Positions 21,444 to 27,387 are shown, numbered from the stretch's first letter. The stretch: DNA of 32,000 bases from Acinetobacter bereziniae (GCA_009912575.1 WNDP01000005.1:30500-62499), one strand, 5' to 3'. Notes: generated by a model not told the origin, from the sequence alone. Program-made: numbers and translations.

Positions 21444-23588
21444 TTAGAAATTATAACGAACACTTAGCGTTGCATTTCTTGGTGTTCCCCAGTTCATAGA
21501 ATTAGCACCAATACCTTCATAATATTTTTTGTCAAAAATATTTTCAACATTCAGCTGAAGTTTAATATTTTTATCGACTTGATAGCCCAGCATTGCACCC
21601 GCGAGTACGAAAGCATCTTGATCTATACGTGTGCTTCCAGTGCCAGTGTAGTATTTGCTTTTGTAATTTAAGCCAAGTCCAGCGCTCCACTGATCTAATT
21701 TATATTTTACAAATAGATTCGAGGTCGTACGTGAATTTGTAGTGTTTACTTTAACGCCTTTAGCATCTTTTGCTTCAAAATTAGCAATACCAAAGTTTAT
21801 TCCCCAATGATCATTAATTTCACCATCTGCTTCGAACTCAAAACCTTTACTTTCAACCCCATCTACACCACGATAAGCTTGTTCATTTGTAAGCTGGCCA
21901 TTACGTACAATAAATTGTCCTGTTATTTCTTCAGCAAAATTTGATTGTTGAATACGAAATAGTGATAAAGCGGTATTTAAACGACCTCCAAACCATTCAC
22001 TTTTTAAACCAGCTTCGTAATTCTTACCTTGGGCTGGGTCTAGGTACTGATCATTCACATCTTTACGACTTTGTGGTTTAAAAATGTCTGTATAGCTGAC
22101 ATAAACAGAGTGATCTTTGGCAAAATCATAAATAGCACCAATATAAGGTGTTACTTCGTTGTTAAATTCGCGATTGCCCACACCATTTGCAGATTCATAT
22201 TTCCAATTTGATAAACGCGTTCCTGCAATCACTTTTAGAGGATCAAGAATTTGAAATTTACCAGAAATATATGCTGAGCTTTGTGTGGTTTCATTCAGTA
22301 CATTGACTCCATTTAATACCACAGATCGGAGTAGGGGCTGTGCCATATTGTTATAGTTAAGTGGTCCACCTAAATATTTTTCGATTTCACTATTGGTATT
22401 TGAGCCACCAAAAATATCTTTAGTTTTCTCATTTTTGTTCCATGAACCACCGATAATAATTTCTTGTGGACGATTGAACAATGTAAAAGGTGCATTGATG
22501 AAAAGATCAATATTGTTTTCTTCATTTGTTGATTCAGAACCATATATAGACACATTATCTGTGATTTTACCTGTCTTTGGATCAGGCTTATTTTTCAATG
22601 GACTGGTGTTGGTTGCTTTATCGACTTGACCACCTGTATACAGTAGTTGGGTATTTGCATCTTCTTTACGGAAGGTATAAGCCACATTTAAATTCACATC
22701 GTTGAATAAATTTTGTTTTAAATTGGCAAATACAGCTGTGGTATTGACATCCCAAAAAGTCCAAGGCGCACTTACCGTCAAGCTTCGATCAAAATTAGTA
22801 CGACTTCCATCCGTATAAAATGCTGGAGTACCTCCCCAACGAATCCCATCACGCTGCAACTCTTGATAGGTTGCTCCCAGCGACATACTGGTTTTATCAC
22901 TTAAGTCATAATTAATTGCACCGTAAAATACATTACGCTCTTTTTCATAATAATCCATAAATGACTTTTCATCTGAATGTTTGACAAACATGCGTCCACG
23001 CAGTGAGCCATCATCATTTAGCGGGGTTGAAATGTCCGCAGAACTACTCCATGAGTTCCAAGATCCAAATGATGTATTCAGATTTCCAGTCAACTCTTTG
23101 GCATTGGCATGTTTACGTACCATATTGAGTCCCATTGCAGGGTTACCAGCACCTGTAGTCAGCCCATTTGCACCTTTAATCACTTCAACACGATCGTAAA
23201 TGTCTAAATCAAGATCACCAGCACCTAAGTTTGTAGTGCTTGGCATGCCATCTATTAAATAGTAATCCACCTGAAAACCACGAGCATAAACAGATTGGCG
23301 TTCATCAGTGCGAGAAGTGGAAACACCTGTAATGGTATTCATTAAGTCCTGAAATGAATCAATGTTTCGGTCATCTAAGTATTCCCGAGTCAATACTTTG
23401 ACTGATTGAGGCGTTTCACGTAGTGACAAATTTAATTTGGTTGCTGTACTTGTACTTTTGGCAGTGTAACTTTGAGTGCCTTCTGTGACCGAAGGGTGCT
23501 GGCTTTCCGCTTCTACTTTGATGGTTGGTAAAGCGACTGTTTCAGTATTTTCTTCAGCATAAACAAGTGTCGGAATAGTTAAAGCCAT
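21444..23588 (-). CDS. TonB-dependent siderophore receptor, 5'-truncated (start of signal peptide missing)
   Basis: 714 aa. Plug (ETPQSVKVLTREYLDD, RGF) and barrel ending ...ATLSVRYNF. The ORF opens with MALTIPTLVYA/EE, which is only the tail of a signal peptide, and an in-frame TGA lies immediately upstream. Confidence 0.85.
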   Translation of the reverse strand: MALTIPTLVYAEENTETVALPTIKVEAESQHPSVTEGTQSYTAKSTSTATKLNLSLRETPQSVKVLTREYLDDRNIDSFQDLMNTITGVSTSRTDERQSVYARGFQVDYYLIDGMPSTTNLGAGDLDLDIYDRVEVIKGANGLTTGAGNPAMGLNMVRKHANAKELTGNLNTSFGSWNSWSSSADISTPLNDDGSLRGRMFVKHSDEKSFMDYYEKERNVFYGAINYDLSDKTSMSLGATYQELQRDGIRWGGTPAFYTDGSRTNFDRSLTVSAPWTFWDVNTTAVFANLKQNLFNDVNLNVAYTFRKEDANTQLLYTGGQVDKATNTSPLKNKPDPKTGKITDNVSIYGSESTNEENNIDLFINAPFTLFNRPQEIIIGGSWNKNEKTKDIFGGSNTNSEIEKYLGGPLNYNNMAQPLLRSVVLNGVNVLNETTQSSAYISGKFQILDPLKVIAGTRLSNWKYESANGVGNREFNNEVTPYIGAIYDFAKDHSVYVSYTDIFKPQSRKDVNDQYLDPAQGKNYEAGLKSEWFGGRLNTALSLFRIQQSNFAEEITGQFIVRNGQLTNEQAYRGVDGVESKGFEFEADGEINDHWGINFGIANFEAKDAKGVKVNTTNSRTTSNLFVKYKLDQWSAGLGLNYKSKYYTGTGSTRIDQDAFVLAGAMLGYQVDKNIKLQLNVENIFDKKYYEGIGANSMNWGTPRNATLSVRYNF

Positions 23589-23663
23589 TCAAATTAATGT
23601 TTATCAGACTTGATCACCATATAGATAGGCTAAGGTAGTTCGTGATCCAAACGTGTTAATCAT

Positions 23664-23720
23664 GTGGACGTTAAAAAACTAACGTCCAAACTCAAATGGA
23701 CGTTAATAAATTAACTTCCA
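23664..23720. repeat. two adjacent palindromes built on TGGACGTTAA half-sites
   Basis: TGGACGTTA (23664-72) / TAACGTCCA (23680-88), and TGGACGTTAA (23697-706) / TTAACTTCCA (23711-20, one mismatch). Confidence 0.6.
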
Positions 23721-23731
23721 GTTAGCGCAGG

Positions 23732-23759
23732 ATTTTGCATAACGAATATTATGTTACTT
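23732..23759 (+). other. dif-like XerC/XerD site L1 (ATTTTGCATAA-CGAATA-TTATGTTACTT)
   Basis: 10/11 XerC-arm and 9/11 XerD-arm matches to ATTTCGCATAA-N6-TTATGTTAAAT. Confidence 0.7.
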
Positions 23760-23765
23760 AACTTG

Positions 23766-23846
23766 CTCTCCAGGACAAATTATCCTGGTCTAGATTTGTC
23801 CTGGAGAGTTGTACAAACATTTATTAATCCTGGCTGCGCCAGGATT
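23766..23846. repeat. left att spacer: two hairpins
   Basis: Perfect 15-bp stem CTCTCCAGGACAAAT (23766-80) / ATTTGTCCTGGAGAG (23794-808). Perfect 9-bp stem AATCCTGGC (23826-34) / GCCAGGATT (23838-46). Confidence 0.75.
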
Positions 23847-23872
23847 TTAGGGTGTGCAATCTCTGACGAGTT

Positions 23873-23901
23873 ATTTAACATAAAATGAAGTTATGCGACT
23901 T
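23873..23901 (-). other. dif-like site L2, inverted relative to L1
   Basis: Plus strand reads ATTTAACATAA-AATGAAG-TTATGCGACTT. The XerD arm is 11/11 canonical and the XerC arm 9/11, with a 7-nt centre instead of 6. Confidence 0.65.
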
Positions 23902-24150
23902 CAGAATGACATAAAGTTGAAAGTTATGATTGATTATAGATTTGAAGGAAAAAAAAGAGTTGGTGGGGCTACAATTGGTATTACAGCATCAAAGGGAAGA
24001 GATGGTCTTTATACGATTTATGGTGGAATGTATGATTTAGATGCTGTTCCAACATCTAAATTATTAGGATCTAATATAAAAACTATTGATCAAATTAAAT
24101 ATGAAGCAAAATTATTTTTTAATTTATCGAAAATAGAAGATATTTCTTAA
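23893..24150 (+). CDS. hypothetical protein (prophage left-end orphan)
   Basis: 85-aa ORF followed by a strong terminator. No recognisable motif. The start may be the internal ATG (MIDYRFEGKK...). The first ATG lies inside dif-like site L2. Confidence 0.45.
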   Translation: MRLQNDIKLKVMIDYRFEGKKRVGGATIGITASKGRDGLYTIYGGMYDLDAVPTSKLLGSNIKTIDQIKYEAKLFFNLSKIEDIS

Positions 24151-24156
24151 TTTAAA

Positions 24157-24187
24157 AAGAGTCCACGTTTTTTAATGGTGGACTCTT
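24157..24187. terminator. bidirectional terminator AAGAGTCCAC-N11-GTGGACTCTT
   Basis: Perfect 10-bp stem with a T-rich loop/flank, between convergent ORFs 23893-24150 and 24204-24473. Confidence 0.7.
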
Positions 24188-24203
24188 GTACCATAATGGT
24201 ATT

Positions 24204-24473
24204 TTATTCAACCTGACGTCCTTTATATTGTTCATTTGGATAAAGTTTTCGCCATGATTTGTCTGAGCGTTCCCAAATAGCATTTCCTTCAGTTAATTTA
24301 CGAAATTCTTTTAAAACACTTTTAGAAATTGCTAAATTTCCATTGTCATTTTGATAGACAAAAGTTTTTCCAAATAATTTAGCAATTGAGTACACTGCTT
24401 GTTCTTGATAAAGGCGACCTAATTTATCTAGTTGCTCCTTCATCCAATTCGCTACGTCTATTTCTGTTGTCAT
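24204..24473 (-). CDS. hypothetical protein, second gene of the repressor operon
   Basis: 89 aa, starting 24 nt downstream of the RHH gene on the same strand. Basic C-terminus. No motif recognised with confidence. Confidence 0.6.
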   Translation of the reverse strand: MTTEIDVANWMKEQLDKLGRLYQEQAVYSIAKLFGKTFVYQNDNGNLAISKSVLKEFRKLTEGNAIWERSDKSWRKLYPNEQYKGRQVE

Positions 24474-24497
24474 TTTATACCTGTTAAAAATGTTAAT

Positions 24498-24689
24498 TTA
24501 TTTGGGAATAATTACATTCCCACTTGCACCAACTTCAATAAATTCAATGCCTTGCTCAATTAGAATATGAACAAGTTCACTATCTCTAATTGGCTGTTGT
24601 CCTTTCTGAATAAGTATTTTATTCAATTCAACAGCCTTCTTTCTCAAGGCTTCTTGCTCTTGATCGTTCAGGCGAACACTTTGAACCAT
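24498..24689 (-). CDS. ribbon-helix-helix (CopG/Arc-like) putative phage repressor
   Basis: The ORF track extends to 24806, but GGAG sits 8 nt before the ATG at 24689. The 63-aa product MVQSVRLNDQEQEALRKKAVELNKIL...IRDSELVHILIEQG fits a beta-strand/helix/helix RHH pattern. Divergent from the replication module, like rstR in CTXphi. Confidence 0.6.
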   Translation of the reverse strand: MVQSVRLNDQEQEALRKKAVELNKILIQKGQQPIRDSELVHILIEQGIEFIEVGASGNVIIPK

Positions 24690-24704
24690 CTTTAAATCTC
24701 CATA

Positions 24705-24810
24705 GTCCACATGTGGACGTGTTTTCAATAATACTTGCATTTTTGCATGCAAATATTGTGCATGCATATATGCTTGTGGTAAATTGATAAAAATGCATTT
24801 ATGCATGCAT
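24705..24810. promoter_or_regulatory. divergent promoter/operator region with palindromes
   Basis: GTCCACATGTGGAC (24705-18), TTTGCATGCAAA (24742-53), TGCATGCA (24759-66), ATGCAT (24792-97), ATGCATGCAT (24801-10). Confidence 0.55.
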
Positions 24811-25096
24811 GTCTTCAGAGTCTCAAATTGGGCTGGAATTTATCATAATGAGCATAGTTACTTTTAAAAATAATCTTGATTTTATACAAGCCGCTTTCAA
24901 TCAGATTGCCAAAATAGTTGCCGAGCATGGTCATCCTTGCCTAGACGTATGCTGTCCTGCTGAATCAACAGAACAATGTCTTGAACATTTGGCTGTCGTC
25001 GCAAATGACTGGTCGTATGACTACTCACTCATTGATGCCCACCTAGAAACTTATAAAAAAGCCAATGCTGAAATTCGTGAATATTTAGGAGAGTAA
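24809..25096 (+). CDS. hypothetical protein upstream of the replication initiator
   Basis: 95 aa (or 82 aa from the ATG at 24848). His/Cys cluster HGHPCLDVCCPAESTEQCLEH. The stop lies 1-4 nt before the Rep start. Confidence 0.5.
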   Translation: MSSESQIGLEFIIMSIVTFKNNLDFIQAAFNQIAKIVAEHGHPCLDVCCPAESTEQCLEHLAVVANDWSYDYSLIDAHLETYKKANAEIREYLGE

Positions 25097-25097
25097 G

Positions 25098-26549
25098 GTG
25101 ATGGACAAGGCATGTGAACTGATTAATCAAATCCAAGACTTCGATATAAATATTAATCAACTTACAGAGGTCTATGAACACTCTAATTCCATCATGGATG
25201 AAATTGTCTTAGCTGCTACATACTCAGAAATTGATCTTCGTGTTTGTCAAAATCTTAAAGATTATTTGAATGGTATTGTTCAGAACAAATTGAACCATTG
25301 CCAACAGCTCATCGCTAAAAAACAGAAGCAACCTCAAGACAATTCAGTTATTCAAACCTTTGAACATAAAATAGCCAAAGTGTTGGTAAACACGGCAGAA
25401 TCAACTGCCAAGCATGATGTTCAACCCCCAATTTATAATATGGGGGTTACGGATTCACAACAGGCATCTGAACAATGGGCTTTTCCAAGATATTTAGATA
25501 ACCACAAGATTATCTCTACAGGGAAAGGCATTGTTCCAGTACCAATTGCTGCAAAGGTCGATAATGGTATAGCTGGTATAGATTGGGTGAGCTTCAGCAT
25601 TCCTTTATCACGTTTCCATGAAAAATATTCTTCTCTTAATCCTTTGGTTGAGGATGAGGCTCTAACTGAATTACTCGAATCTATTATAGATCAAGAACTC
25701 TTTGAGTTATTTGGATTTGGTCTAGGTCAAAAGCGTGATAAAGGCATGCACTTCAATAAATATGCCTACACATTACAGGATGACTTAGGCATGGTTCTGT
25801 ATGGCAATACTCAAAAATCTATTATTGTGCAAATCAATGGTTCAGGATGTGCGCTTGCCCGTAAAGGTTGGAATGAACAACTTTATAAATATTTAAAACA
25901 AATCAAAGGTTCAAAGCTTTCTCGTGTAGATATTTGCTTTGATGACTTTGAGGGTGAATACATCACCCTAGATGAAGCTGATCAATGGGATACGCAAGAA
26001 ATGTTTTGGGTTTCTGGTCGTGTTCCTGATTCAAGACATGCTGGTAATTGGAAACGTCCCAATGGAAAAGGACGTACTTTATATATCGGTGTTCGTGAAA
26101 GTGGTAAATCTTGCCGAATTTATGAAAAAGGTAAAGAAAAGGGTGATGCTTTAAGCGAATGGGTTCGTATTGAAGTCGAATTTAAAGCGAGTGACCGTTA
26201 CCTAGAATTAGAAATATTGCTCTCACCATCACAATATTTTATCGGTGCTTACCCTGTATTTAATGAGATCTTATTACCAAGATTAGGGCAATACATCATG
26301 CCTGAAAAGACTGAAATCATTAAAAAACAATCACAAATCGAATGGAAAAAAGCTATCGAAATTACCAAAAGCCAATTTGGTAAATACATTCGCCAGTTCC
26401 GAAAAGTCTATGACGATTCTGAATTACTTACCATGCTTTCATCTTCTAAAGATGAAGTACCAAAACGTCTGAAATTCTCTGCAATTGCAGCAATGCAAGC
26501 CGTTCGTATTAATCAACCAATTTATGAGGAATTAGCTCATGCAGTTTAA
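25098..26549 (+). CDS. rolling-circle replication initiator, Rep_trans / RstA-gpII-like
   Basis: 483 aa. RVDICFDDF, LYIGVRESGKSCRIYEKGKEKG and WVRIEVEFKA match the Rep_trans (PF02486) pattern seen in CTXphi RstA. AGGAG lies 8 nt before the ATG at 25101. Confidence 0.88.
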   Translation: MMDKACELINQIQDFDININQLTEVYEHSNSIMDEIVLAATYSEIDLRVCQNLKDYLNGIVQNKLNHCQQLIAKKQKQPQDNSVIQTFEHKIAKVLVNTAESTAKHDVQPPIYNMGVTDSQQASEQWAFPRYLDNHKIISTGKGIVPVPIAAKVDNGIAGIDWVSFSIPLSRFHEKYSSLNPLVEDEALTELLESIIDQELFELFGFGLGQKRDKGMHFNKYAYTLQDDLGMVLYGNTQKSIIVQINGSGCALARKGWNEQLYKYLKQIKGSKLSRVDICFDDFEGEYITLDEADQWDTQEMFWVSGRVPDSRHAGNWKRPNGKGRTLYIGVRESGKSCRIYEKGKEKGDALSEWVRIEVEFKASDRYLELEILLSPSQYFIGAYPVFNEILLPRLGQYIMPEKTEIIKKQSQIEWKKAIEITKSQFGKYIRQFRKVYDDSELLTMLSSSKDEVPKRLKFSAIAAMQAVRINQPIYEELAHAV

Positions 26550-26826
26550 AACAACTATTACCGTACTTGGAGCAAAGAGTTCAAAAGGTGAGTTCAACGG
26601 TAAACCGTATGATTCAACAACAATCTTTTTCCAAGCTGAATTACAAGATGGGGACAATTTTGTTGGTCAAGTGGGTGAACAAATCCGCTGGGGTACATCT
26701 GCCAATTTTGAAAAGTTAAAAACTTTGAAATTTCCATTGAATGCAGAAGCAACAATGGAGCAGGTGAGTAACGGTAAATCAATGGTCACAATCTTAAAAG
26801 ACCTTGTGCCGCAACTACAAAAATGA
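26539..26826 (+). CDS. putative ssDNA-binding protein (gene V / RstB analogue)
   Basis: 95 aa. Overlaps the Rep stop by 11 nt. Position, size and a KG..NGKPY...F beta-rich pattern resemble Pf3/Ff G5P OB-fold proteins. Confidence 0.55.
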   Translation: MQFKTTITVLGAKSSKGEFNGKPYDSTTIFFQAELQDGDNFVGQVGEQIRWGTSANFEKLKTLKFPLNAEATMEQVSNGKSMVTILKDLVPQLQK

Positions 26827-26915
26827 GTTGTTTAGTTTATAGCTGTAATAGATGTGGTGCGTATTTCTTTTATGAAAATGTACTGAAACATCATGAAAAA
26901 CAATGCAATGGATAG
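26823..26915 (+). CDS. 30-aa micro-ORF with C-X2-C-X12-H-X3-C zinc-finger spacing
   Basis: Its ATG overlaps the TGA of the upstream gene (ATGA). MSCLVYSCNRCGAYFFYENVLKHHEKQCNG. Below the ORF-track length cutoff. Confidence 0.4.
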   Translation: MSCLVYSCNRCGAYFFYENVLKHHEKQCNG

Positions 26916-26926
26916 GAATTTAAGAA

Positions 26927-27112
26927 ATGCACGTCTGCAAAACTTTATCACCGCAAAATGAGTCAGGTTTGCAAACGTGCTTGGAATGGCAGGAACAAAA
27001 ACCGTTCTTGCCAAATTTAACGGTACAGCAAGCCGACCAAATGTTAGTCGCAATCGTGGGCTGCTTTGCCGTTGTTTTCATCGTCAAGCAAGTTATCAGC
27101 TTGCTTAAATAA
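26927..27112 (+). CDS. small membrane protein (possible minor coat, pVII/pIX position)
   Basis: 61 aa. AGGA 10 nt upstream. C-terminal TM segment MLVAIVGCFAVVFIVKQVISLL. Lies between the ssDNA-binding and major coat genes. Confidence 0.4.
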   Translation: MHVCKTLSPQNESGLQTCLEWQEQKPFLPNLTVQQADQMLVAIVGCFAVVFIVKQVISLLK

Positions 27113-27122
27113 TGAGGTTTAT

Positions 27123-27344
27123 ATGGAAACTCAAGTTAAAGAAAAAAACAAGGCTCTACCTGTTGCTTTGGGTACAGCATTAATGGTTGCAACTGGCTCT
27201 GCCTTTGCTGAAGGTGATTTAGCAACTGGTGCAACAACTGCCATTAGTGGTGGTTCATCTACACTTCAAACAGTTGGTATTGCCATTATTGGTGTAGTTG
27301 CTGGTGTATGGGTCATTAAACGTGTGATTGCATTAATTCGTTGA
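27123..27344 (+). CDS. major coat protein precursor (pVIII-like)
   Basis: GAGG 5 nt before the ATG at 27123. The 73-aa precoat has a signal peptide ending GSAFA/EGD. The mature ~44 aa has an acidic N-terminus, hydrophobic core IAIIGVVAGVWVI and basic tail KRVIALIR. Confidence 0.8.
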   Translation: METQVKEKNKALPVALGTALMVATGSAFAEGDLATGATTAISGGSSTLQTVGIAIIGVVAGVWVIKRVIALIR

Positions 27345-27387
27345 TTCAACTTACCCCATTACAGCGATGTAGTGGGGCTTTAAACTT

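What the first reader, a model, noticed from the sequence alone, without database searches (positions are those of the whole stretch)
23732..23901. Second att module at the left end with the same architecture but an unrelated spacer
L1 (23732-59, plus) and L2 (23873-901, minus) are again inverted dif-like sites, 113 nt apart. The spacer again forms one long perfect hairpin (15 bp) and one short one (9 bp). The arms are conserved between modules. L1 and R1 share TGCATAAC..ATATTATGTT, and L2 and R2 share ATTTAACATAA and TTATGCGA. The spacers share no obvious sequence. Conserved structure with diverged sequence argues for function rather than a recent duplication, and suggests two related but distinct elements. 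L2 has a 7-nt rather than 6-nt centre, and the L1/L2 centres would be unpaired in a hairpin, like the bubble in CTXphi attP.
Basis: seen in the sequence. Interest (0 to 1): 0.75.

Follow-up and report, generated by a model that had tools for sequence, protein, structure and literature searches.

The report
Hybrid phage junction beside chromosomal dif
The left "att module" is real, but it is a junction: the leftover right end of an older, mostly deleted filamentous phage joined to the left end of the resident Acinetobacter filamentous prophage, and comparing it with relatives suggests these phages insert at the chromosome's dif site as a folded DNA hairpin that is cut on the XerD side, not the XerC side as in the cholera phage CTXphi.

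Summary
L1 (23732-59, +) and L2 (23873-901, -) are dif-like sites 113 nt apart. The spacer holds perfect 15-bp and 9-bp hairpins. Four such sites occur in the window against 0.03 expected.

The window is the dif/terminus region of an A. bereziniae/guillouiae-group chromosome with a 7.1-kb inovirus prophage (23884-30964). R2 is the true dif.

In relatives, the phage's intact attP is an R1-type (+) site, a forked spacer and a (-) site identical to L2. Single lysogens carry L2 alone at the left end. So L2's 7-nt centre and XerC arm belong to the resident phage.

L1 (centre CGAATA), its spacer and the XerD arm match the right end of a second inovirus lineage (Rep about 50% identical). Only about 290 nt of that element survive here, abutting a 5'-truncated TonB receptor gene. 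The module is therefore a mixed junction between two element types (CGA vs CTT centre halves), most likely a fossil and not an active attP.

Across 24 modules the forked structure is strongly supported by covariation (90% paired, 22 pairs with compensatory changes). The left spacer is an intact, otherwise unsampled variant.

At family level, all 16 dif-end junctions place the crossover at the XerD-arm/centre border, the mirror image of CTXphi.

The parts
23591..23731 (+). Relic of the right-end flank of an older CGA-class inovirus (element A). It abuts the truncated TonB receptor gene and contains an inserted pair of TGGACGTTAA hairpins at about 23642-23720.
   Evidence: blastn shows 23591-23641 and 23720-23760 matching the region just upstream of the (+) site in A-type phages L021, L024 and L018. 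The flank motif TAGCGCAGG is shared with 13 genomic loci. Synteny with strain L029 ends at 23596.
23732..23759 (+). L1: the (+) dif-like site of element A (XerC arm ATTTTGCATAA, centre CGAATA, XerD arm TTATGTTACTT).
   Evidence: The identical site lies at the right end of inoviruses with 47-51% Rep identity (L018/L013, L021, L024) and beside dif in L022, L023 and L028.
23760..23872 (+). Forked spacer of element A: base-stem extension (23760-65 with 23867-72), hairpin 1 (23766-23808), two-tier hairpin 2 (23809-23859).
   Evidence: z -6.5 to -7.9. Geometry is the same as in 22 other modules. The sequence was not found in IMG/VR, JGI metagenomes, phage or plasmid collections, nor in any of the 13 GTDB loci that carry an L1-type site.
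23873..23883 (+). XerD-arm complement (ATTTAACATAA) of L2. This is the crossover zone. It is identical in dif and in all phage (-) sites, so its origin (element A or dif) cannot be read from the sequence.
23884..23910 (+). Left end of the resident prophage: the 7-nt centre (AATGAAG), the XerC-arm complement (TTATGCGACTT) and the conserved flank CAGAATGAC of the phage's (-) att site.
   Evidence: The same sequence is present in the intact attP of L003, L009, L010, L078, L091 and L129, and at the left end of lysogens L001 and L007. It also occurs on 11 plasmids.
23884..30964 (+). Resident inovirus prophage (CTT class). Genes: small cargo/regulatory ORFs, Rep_trans 25098-26549, ssb-like 26539-26826, coat 27066-27344, pIII-like 27388-28614, DUF2523 28618-28899, Zot 28986-30011, o86, o68.
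30831..30858 (+). R1: the resident phage's (+) att site (TTTCTGCATAA CTTATA TTATGTTCATT).
30859..30953 (+). Resident phage's forked spacer (hairpin 1 at 30865-30907, hairpin 2 at 30908-30940).
30954..30981 (-). R2: the functional chromosomal dif (ATTTCGCATAA TGTATA TTATGTTAAAT on the - strand). Its XerD arm was donated by the phage. Its centre and XerC arm are chromosomal.
   Evidence: Phage-free relatives L036-L040 and L156-L164 carry the same dif and the same LysR-side flank. Cumulative GC skew peaks at about 27-31 kb.

Best explanation
The window holds the dif (replication terminus) locus of an Acinetobacter chromosome. Two filamentous-phage elements that use the host XerCD recombinases inserted there one after the other.

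Each phage of this family carries one att module downstream of its last gene. The module is a (+) dif-like site, a ~92-nt spacer that folds into two hairpins, and an inverted (-) site with a 7-8-nt centre. In the packaged (+) single strand the two sites pair into a forked hairpin.

Recombination with dif joins the strands at the border between the XerD arm and the centre. As a result:
- the (-) site's centre and XerC arm end up at the prophage's left end;
- the (+) site, spacer and XerD arm end up at the right end, directly against the centre and XerC arm of dif. That right-hand site remains a working dif and is the target for the next element.

In this window an older CGA-class element (A) inserted first and left L1 + spacer + XerD arm next to dif. 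The resident CTT-class phage (B) then inserted into that dif. The left module is therefore [A's (+) site + A's spacer + XerD arm] joined to [B's centre + XerC arm].

The body of element A was later, or possibly earlier, lost in a deletion that also removed the first ~16 codons of the neighbouring TonB receptor gene. The left module is therefore a fossil mixed-type junction. It has no replication gene and its centre halves do not match, so it should not work as an attP.

Shown: the anatomy, the homologies, the junction positions, the covariation and the truncation. Inferred: the order of events, single-stranded DNA as the active form, and XerD as the catalyst.
For: 1. Intact attP in relatives is an R1-type site + spacer + a site identical to L2 (L003 471-622, L009 5860-6011, L010 4396-4546).
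2. Lysogens L001 and L007 have L2 alone, preceded by unrelated DNA, and R1 + spacer + dif on the right.
3. L1-type sites with the same flank lie downstream of Zot in inoviruses with 47-51% Rep identity (L018/L013, L021, L024).
4. L013 shows the same kind of mixed junction inside a three-element array.
5. Of 42 distinct modules, 22 are same-type: the first 3 nt of the (+) centre equal the first 3 nt of the reverse-complemented (-) centre, in three classes (CTT, CGA, CGT). Sixteen end in dif and 4 are mixed-type, the window's left module among them.
6. Phage-free strains of the same species group carry complete, partly deleted or minimal scars of such modules next to dif.
7. Synteny with L029 stops at 23596, inside the receptor's signal peptide (733 aa in relatives, 714 aa here). 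Homology to A-type phage flanks starts at 23591.
8. Structure: 90.3% of cells pair against 27-39% in slid controls; 22 pairs show compensatory change, with 0 of 500 shuffles reaching the observed value. G.T outnumbers A.C 33 to 14 in the spacer helices, and 21 to 2 in helices 4 and 5, which favours folding of the gene-sense strand.
Against: - No strain was found that has L1 + this spacer + dif without phage B, and no intact phage carrying this spacer. The origin of the left spacer therefore rests on L1 and its flank alone.
- The spacer's hairpins are still perfect. That fits recent acquisition but would also fit continued function.
- The XerD arm is identical in all partners, so the crossover can only be placed at or within that arm.
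- The sequence collections are biased and the loci are partly related, so shuffle statistics overstate independence.
- No experiment on Xer catalysis with these sites exists in the literature searched.
Confidence: 0.8

Rival explanations
1. The left module is the working attP(+) of a second, distinct element (for example a miniature or satellite element) that still sits at the left end.
For: The fork is intact and very stable. Its spacer differs from the right module. L1 belongs to a different site class.
Against: - No genes lie between the truncated receptor gene (ATG at 23588; homology to the intact gene ends at 23596) and L1.
- L2's centre, XerC arm and flank are those of the resident phage.
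- The centre halves are mismatched (CGA vs CTT), unlike all 22 same-type attP modules.
- No Rep gene or origin is associated with it.
Confidence: 0.06
2. Both modules belong to the one resident phage: a second att copy that the phage carries, or a partial tandem duplication.
For: The architecture is the same on both sides of the prophage. The L041 contig also shows a phage flanked by modules with different spacers.
Against: - Relatives with 84-97% identical Rep have a single module per genome.
- Lysogens L001 and L007 lack any (+) site or spacer left of L2.
- L1 and its flank match another phage lineage.
- In L041 both modules are CGT-class array junctions, each followed by the same phage left end.
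Confidence: 0.04
3. It is a plasmid-style pdif mini-module: a short double-stranded segment bounded by inverted XerC/D and XerD/C sites, moved by Xer recombination between replicons, with no link to single-stranded phage DNA.
For: Inverted pairs of Xer sites are typical of Acinetobacter plasmids. The L2-type site with its flank occurs as a pdif-like site on 11 Acinetobacter plasmids.
Against: - The locus is the chromosomal dif.
- The 113-nt segment carries no gene.
- Covariation and the G.T bias point to a folded single strand.
- Only the L2 half is found on plasmids, never L1 + spacer.
- Excision of such cassettes by A. baumannii XerCD was not observed experimentally (bioRxiv 10.1101/2024.04.09.588662).
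Confidence: 0.04
4. The phage family integrates as double-stranded replicative form through its (-) site alone (VGJphi/TLCphi style). The (+) site and hairpins would then serve another role, such as packaging signal or minus-strand origin. The left module is still a junction relic under this reading.
For: The junction positions fit equally well with an XerD-first Holliday junction on double-stranded DNA resolved by replication. The loop of hairpin 1 starts with a -10-like hexamer in most modules.
Against: - The (-) site has a 7-8-bp centre in duplex form, which is unsuitable spacing for XerCD.
- The XerC-side half of the (+) centre co-varies with the (-) centre in three classes.
- The XerD-side half of the (+) centre is ATA, as in dif, in 40 of 42 modules (AGA in the other two).
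- All of these are expected only if the two sites pair.
Confidence: 0.2

Closest known systems
CTXphi attP(+) of Vibrio cholerae (CTX-type element integrating through host Xer recombination)
   Same: - A filamentous phage without an integrase.
- Two inverted XerC/XerD-binding sites about 90 nt apart, between the last gene and the regulatory module.
- The sites fold in the (+) strand into a forked (double) hairpin.
- One or both duplex sites have a non-6-bp centre and are therefore inactive as duplex DNA.
- The prophage sits at dif, and arrays of elements occur (PMC3442271, PMC4246890).
   Different: - In CTXphi, XerC makes the exchange and the homology with dif lies next to the XerC arm. Here every junction lies at the XerD-arm/centre border, the (+) centre shares ATA with dif next to the XerD arm, and the XerC-side halves (CTT, CGA, CGT) do not match dif's TGT.
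- The centre is almost fully paired with a 1-2-nt bulge, not a large bubble.
- The host is Acinetobacter.
TLCphi (XerD-first integrating element of V. cholerae)
   Same: The crossover is attributable to XerD and must be independent of the normal FtsK-at-septum control (PMC6744903, PMC9226527).
   Different: - TLCphi uses a double-stranded attP with a degenerate XerD arm and encodes the activator XafT (DUF3653).
- Here the XerD arm is perfect and the site is a hairpin.
- No DUF3653 protein was found among the 12 phage ORFs tested.
Hybrid junctions in element arrays at V. cholerae dif1 (TLC-RS1-CTX)
   Same: Successive integrations at the regenerated dif produce junctions made of the end of one element and the start of the next. 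The window's left module is such a junction.
   Different: Here the upstream element survives only as about 290 nt, and the junction keeps a complete foldable fork.
Acinetobacter plasmid pdif (xrs) modules
   Same: Pairs of inverted XerC/D and XerD/C sites. The phage's (-) site itself occurs on plasmids as such a site.
   Different: pdif modules enclose genes, sit on plasmids and act as duplex DNA. This unit is chromosomal, has no gene and is structure-constrained.

Membership tests
CTX-type attP(+) (folded single-strand att site of a Xer-dependent filamentous phage) | Two dif-like XerC/XerD sites in inverted orientation, about 90 nt apart, in an integrase-less filamentous phage | tested here: met
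   Four sites in two inverted pairs, 113 and 95 nt apart. Inovirus genes are present and no integrase was found.
CTX-type attP(+) (folded single-strand att site of a Xer-dependent filamentous phage) | The module folds into a forked hairpin of the (+) strand | tested here: met
   Fold z-scores of -7.3 and -9.4. Covariation on 24 modules. G.T to A.C ratio of 33:14 favours the gene-sense strand. No physical evidence.
CTX-type attP(+) (folded single-strand att site of a Xer-dependent filamentous phage) | The two sites of a module belong to the same element and pair in the centre | tested here: not met
   This row concerns the left module. The L1 centre is CGAATA and the reverse-complemented L2 centre is CTTCATT, a mixed-type pair. 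It is 1 of 4 such cases against 22 same-type modules. The reconstructed R1+L2 attP does meet the feature (CTT/CTT).
CTX-type attP(+) (folded single-strand att site of a Xer-dependent filamentous phage) | Exchange by XerC, with homology to dif next to the XerC arm | tested here: not met
   All 16 dif-end modules keep dif's centre and XerC arm. All phage left ends keep the phage centre and XerC arm. Homology to dif (ATA) lies next to the XerD arm. The catalysis itself is not testable here.
TLC-type element (XerD-first integration) | Encodes a Xer activation factor (XafT, DUF3653) | tested here: not met
   Pfam scans of 12 phage ORFs gave no DUF3653 hit. A non-homologous factor cannot be excluded.
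TLC-type element (XerD-first integration) | Double-stranded attP with a degenerate XerD arm | tested here: not met
   The XerD arm ATTTAACATAA is identical to that of dif. The duplex centre is 7-8 bp.
Acinetobacter pdif module | Gene(s) bounded by inverted XerC/D and XerD/C sites on a plasmid | tested here: not met
   The only ORF of 40 aa or more in the 113-nt spacer is a 45-aa one (23751-23888) that starts inside L1 and ends inside L2, and is not credited as a gene. The locus is the chromosomal dif, syntenic with A. bereziniae chromosomes. Only the L2 half is found on plasmids.
Chromosomal dif | 28-bp site with a 6-bp centre, conserved at the same locus in phage-free relatives | tested here: not met
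   Only R2 (30954-81) meets this. Neither L1 (centre CGAATA) nor L2 (7-nt centre) is found at the dif locus of the 14 phage-free relatives examined; L1-type sites do stand about 93 nt from dif in other Acinetobacter species.

The most novel reading that the evidence does not exclude
These Acinetobacter inoviruses would be a fourth way of exploiting Xer recombination. The att site is a CTXphi-like forked hairpin of the packaged single strand. It would be integrated by one XerD-catalysed strand exchange at dif that does not depend on FtsK, the mirror image of CTXphi's XerC exchange, with replication resolving the intermediate. The 1-2-nt bulge in the centre would make the integrated duplex site inert. 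The hairpin-1 stem, which varies while always staying paired, would be a lineage-specific determinant (packaging or priming signal). Under this reading the window's left module records a lineage with a spacer not yet sampled anywhere.
Probability: 0.4. Interest if true: 0.8.

Novelty: new variant of a known kind. Interest (0 to 1): 0.55.

Why it matters
By itself the left module is a relic. It does show how the DNA beside dif in Acinetobacter is built up from successive phage insertions and deletions, one of which disabled a siderophore receptor gene here.

The comparison it prompted matters more.
- A widespread family of Acinetobacter filamentous phages carries a CTXphi-like folded att site, and its junctions all lie on the XerD side.
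- If XerD really makes the exchange on a single-stranded hairpin, that extends the known ways mobile elements use the chromosome-dimer resolution machinery.
- It also raises the question of how XerD is activated away from FtsK. A. baumannii XerD does not cleave dif without FtsK-gamma (bioRxiv 10.1101/2024.04.09.588662).
- The same (-) site turns up among plasmid pdif sites. This links these phages to the Xer-site cassettes that spread resistance genes in Acinetobacter.

Tried and rejected
- Exact-protein look-ups of the window's TonB receptor, its Rep and P0131 found nothing.
- Megablast and blastn of the prophage and of the left module against the phage collection gave no match.
- The left-spacer hairpin pattern gave no hit in IMG/VR. 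It gave five hits in JGI metagenomes, all unrelated palindromes with different GC content and no dif-like sites.
- The plasmid search matched only L2 plus its flank, not the spacer.
- No Rfam family matches either module.
- The promoter/terminator scan gave nothing in the module. The only nearby terminator-like site lies in the inserted hairpins at 23678-23707.
- Folding each strand separately does not distinguish the strands by energy. The G.T/A.C count was used instead.
- No XafT/DUF3653 or other named domain was found in the small phage ORFs o85, o95, o86 and o68.
- None of the contigs with an intact attP (L003, L009, L010) showed a terminal overlap, so circularity is unproven. They may be tandem junctions, which carry the same information.
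- Considered and rejected: the spacer as an RNA element or a terminator; the left module as ordinary chromosome; the left module as the resident phage's own second site.

Full report
**What is in the window.** GC content is about 32-43%. The nearest proteins place the window in the Acinetobacter bereziniae/guillouiae group.

Positions 23884-30964 hold a 7.1-kb filamentous prophage:
- Rep_trans initiator, 25098-26549
- ssb-like gene
- Inovirus coat B, 27066-27344
- TspB-like adsorption protein, 27388-28614
- DUF2523, 28618-28899
- Zot, 28986-30011

No integrase is present.

The core GCATAA-N6-7-TTATGTT occurs four times in the window against 0.03 expected by chance: L1 (23732-59, +), L2 (23873-901, -), R1 (30831-58, +) and R2 (30954-81, -). 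On the minus strand R2 reads ATTTCGCATAA TGTATA TTATGTTAAAT. By my own knowledge, its 6-nt centre and XerD arm are identical to those of E. coli dif. It is the chromosomal dif of phage-free relatives at the same locus next to the same LysR gene (L036-L040, L156-L164). Cumulative GC skew peaks at about 27-31 kb, as expected at a replication terminus.

**The observation.**
- a 113-nt gap between L1 and L2;
- a perfect 15-bp hairpin with a 13-nt loop (23766-23808);
- a perfect 9-bp hairpin (23826-23846);
- a 7-nt centre in L2;
- the shared strings with R1 and R2.

As single-stranded DNA both modules fold into a three-way fork: -36.2 kcal/mol (z -7.3) for the left and -37.0 (z -9.4) for the right.

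**What L2 is.** Fifteen IMG/VR contigs encode Rep proteins 51-100% identical to the window's.
- In L003, L009 and L010 an R1-type (+) site and an R-type spacer are followed directly by a (-) site identical to L2, ATTTAACATAA|AATGAAG|TTATGCGACTT, plus the flank CAGAATGA. Phage early genes follow. This is the intact att module of the free or tandem phage.
- In lysogens L001 and L007, L2 stands alone at the left end, preceded by unrelated DNA. The right end is R1 + spacer + dif.

So L2's centre, XerC arm and flank are phage sequence, and R2's centre and XerC arm are chromosomal. The join lies at or within the shared XerD arm.

**What L1 and the left spacer are.** A scan of one genome per species found L1's core with centre CGAATA at 13 loci, all in Acinetobacter.
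- In A. gerneri (L018, the same as L013), A. bereziniae CIP 70.12 (L021) and A. rongchengensis (L024) it lies downstream of Zot in inoviruses whose Rep is 47-51% identical to the window's. It is preceded by the same flank (..TAGCGCAGG) as in the window.
- In L016, L022, L023, L026 and L028 the L1-type site, a spacer and dif stand together with no phage genes nearby. Only 55-400 nt of phage-like flank remains.
- In the window, homology to these phage flanks covers 23591-23641 and 23720-23760.
- Synteny with a related strain (L029, 94% identity) stops at 23596. That position is inside the signal-peptide codons of the TonB receptor, which is 733 aa in relatives and 714 aa here.

So about 290 nt of an older element remain, joined by a deletion to a truncated receptor gene.

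**A rule that classifies the module.** I tabulated 42 distinct modules from all loci.
- In 22, the first three bases of the (+) centre equal the first three of the reverse-complemented (-) centre. There are three classes: CTT, CGA and CGT. These are native att modules or same-type tandem junctions.
- Sixteen end in dif (TGTATA or TATATA).
- Four are mixed-type: two in the three-element array of L013, one in L048, and the window's left module (CGA against CTT).

The left module is therefore a junction between two element types. In native modules the centre pairs almost fully, with one or two bulged bases on the (-) strand: CTTATA with CTTCATT, and CGAATA with CGAATCTA.

**Is the architecture functional?** I aligned 24 modules (A1) and counted pairs against the fork predicted for the right module.
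- 90.3% of cells pair, against 27-39% when the 3' partners are slid by 1-3 columns.
- 22 pairs carry changes on both sides, and none of 500 shuffles reaches the observed values.
- Hairpin 1 has 11 of 15 pairs with compensatory change and is 97.7% paired.
- Hairpin 1 starts 7 nt after the (+) site in 22 of the 24 modules (8 nt in one; one is decayed). Its stem is 15 bp, with 14-15 pairs formed in 23 of 24, and its loop is usually 12-13 nt.

The window's left hairpin 1 matches the consensus arm at 8 of 15 positions, and all seven differences are compensated. It is a strongly diverged homologue, not an unrelated sequence.

G.T pairs outnumber A.C pairs 33 to 14 in the spacer helices, and 21 to 2 in helices 4 and 5. 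This favours folding of the strand that has the sense of the phage genes, which by established inovirus biology is the packaged strand. The sequences are related to each other, so these statistics overstate independence.

**Other spacer types and scars.**
- Another well-folding alternative spacer occurs in L041 and L069 (z -6.4).
- A decayed spacer (z -2.5) lies beside dif in eight phage-free A. bereziniae/guillouiae loci, L157-L164.
- Other phage-free strains keep only the 3' half of hairpin 2 next to dif (L038, L040) or show internal deletions (L036, L156).

Relics of module right ends on the XerD side of dif are thus the rule in this group. The window's left spacer itself was found nowhere else. 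Its perfect stems indicate either a recent relic or retained function.

**Mechanism.**

Shown: the exchanged site is the (-) site, and in all 16 dif-end modules and all phage left ends the join is at the XerD-arm/centre border.

From established Xer chemistry, XerD cleaves the bottom strand at exactly that border, and XerC cleaves the top strand at the other border. Ligation needs pairing next to the cut (PMC4246890).

The sequences fit an exchange on the XerD side:
- The (+) centre ends in ATA in 40 of 42 modules, as does dif (TGTATA). dif's incoming bottom strand (TAT...) would therefore pair perfectly with it.
- The XerC-side halves (CTT, CGA, CGT) do not match dif's TGT.

In CTXphi the reverse holds: XerC catalyses the exchange and homology lies next to the XerC arm (PMC3442271, PMC4246890).

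Inferred: a single XerD-mediated strand exchange between the folded (+) strand and dif, completed by replication. The 7-8-bp duplex centre then leaves the integrated left site inert.

A double-stranded, XerD-first route through the (-) site alone would give the same junctions. I rate it less likely because the (+) and (-) centres co-vary.

One caveat remains. A. baumannii XerD does not cleave dif without FtsK-gamma, although two plasmid sites are cleaved without it (bioRxiv 10.1101/2024.04.09.588662). No XafT-like (DUF3653) protein was found in the phage.

**Literature.** Five full-text searches found no description of folded att sites or XerD-side junctions for Acinetobacter filamentous phages. 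One paper suggests in passing that some A. baumannii filamentous prophages probably use host integration machinery, comparing them to the dif/XerCD-dependent CTXphi and Ypfphi, and occur in tandem (PMC11209303). Another does not mention dif (PMC12285184). The held library is incomplete, so prior description cannot be excluded.

**Verdict.**
- The left module is best read as a fossil mixed-type junction in an array of phage elements at dif. It is a new variant of a known kind and of moderate interest in itself.
- The family-level inference, a CTXphi-like hairpin crossed over on the XerD side, is the part worth following up experimentally.

Noticed in passing
window 21444-23597 (- strand): The TonB-dependent siderophore receptor gene lacks its first ~16 codons, which include the start and half of the signal peptide, compared with 733-aa relatives. 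Homology to strain L029 ends at 23596, where the phage relic begins. The gene is probably a pseudogene created by the deletion that removed the older phage.
   Followed up: partly
window 23642-23720: Two tandem copies of a hairpin (TGGACGTTAA..TTAACGTCCA; 29-nt units, 83% alike) are inserted in the relic flank between motifs that are contiguous in other genomes. The region scores as terminator-like on the minus strand.
   Followed up: no
L035 9002-9030 (A. baumannii plasmid NZ_CP033769.1) and 10 other plasmids: The phage's (-) att site with its 7-nt centre and the flank CTTCAGAATGAC occurs on Acinetobacter plasmids as one of the pdif-like sites, next to a DUF4145 gene. A DUF4145/HEPN gene also lies beside the dif scar in A. 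bereziniae L038-L040. This suggests traffic between phage left ends and plasmid Xer-site cassettes.
   Followed up: partly
window 23781-23786 and 30880-30885; same position in modules of L001-L028 and L041-L153: The loop of hairpin 1 begins with a -10-like hexamer, sometimes using the last T of the stem. It is TATAAT, TATGAT or TAAAAT in most modules and TATCCT in the left module. It could mark a priming or promoter signal on single-stranded DNA.
   Followed up: no
L001 8689-10046; L005 9316-9948: On the XerC-arm side of dif in two relatives there is a second inovirus in inverted orientation (Rep 39% identical in L001; Zot 27% in L005). Different phage families may colonise the two sides of dif.
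   Followed up: no
L041 1300-1475; L069; L157-L164 next to dif: Further spacer types exist. One is a well-folding alternative (stem ACTTCACTGGAGAGA) at one end of a phage whose other end has the standard spacer. Another is a poorly folding, apparently decayed type beside dif in eight phage-free A. bereziniae/guillouiae loci.
   Followed up: partly
L013 1116-10354; L147 (four modules): Arrays of three or four modules occur. L013 includes a 2.3-kb mini-element carrying only small ORFs and the first ~121 codons of Rep between two modules, reminiscent of satellite or defective elements.
   Followed up: no
window 23770-23846: The hexamer CCAGGA/TCCTGG occurs five times in the left spacer: in both arms and the loop of hairpin 1 and in both arms of hairpin 2. 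This allows alternative pairings, or it may be a repeated protein-binding motif.
   Followed up: no
window 24736-24815: Repeated TGCAT(N)ATGCATGCA motifs lie between the divergent 102-aa regulator-like gene and the o95-Rep operon. They look like operators of the phage's lysogeny switch.
   Followed up: no
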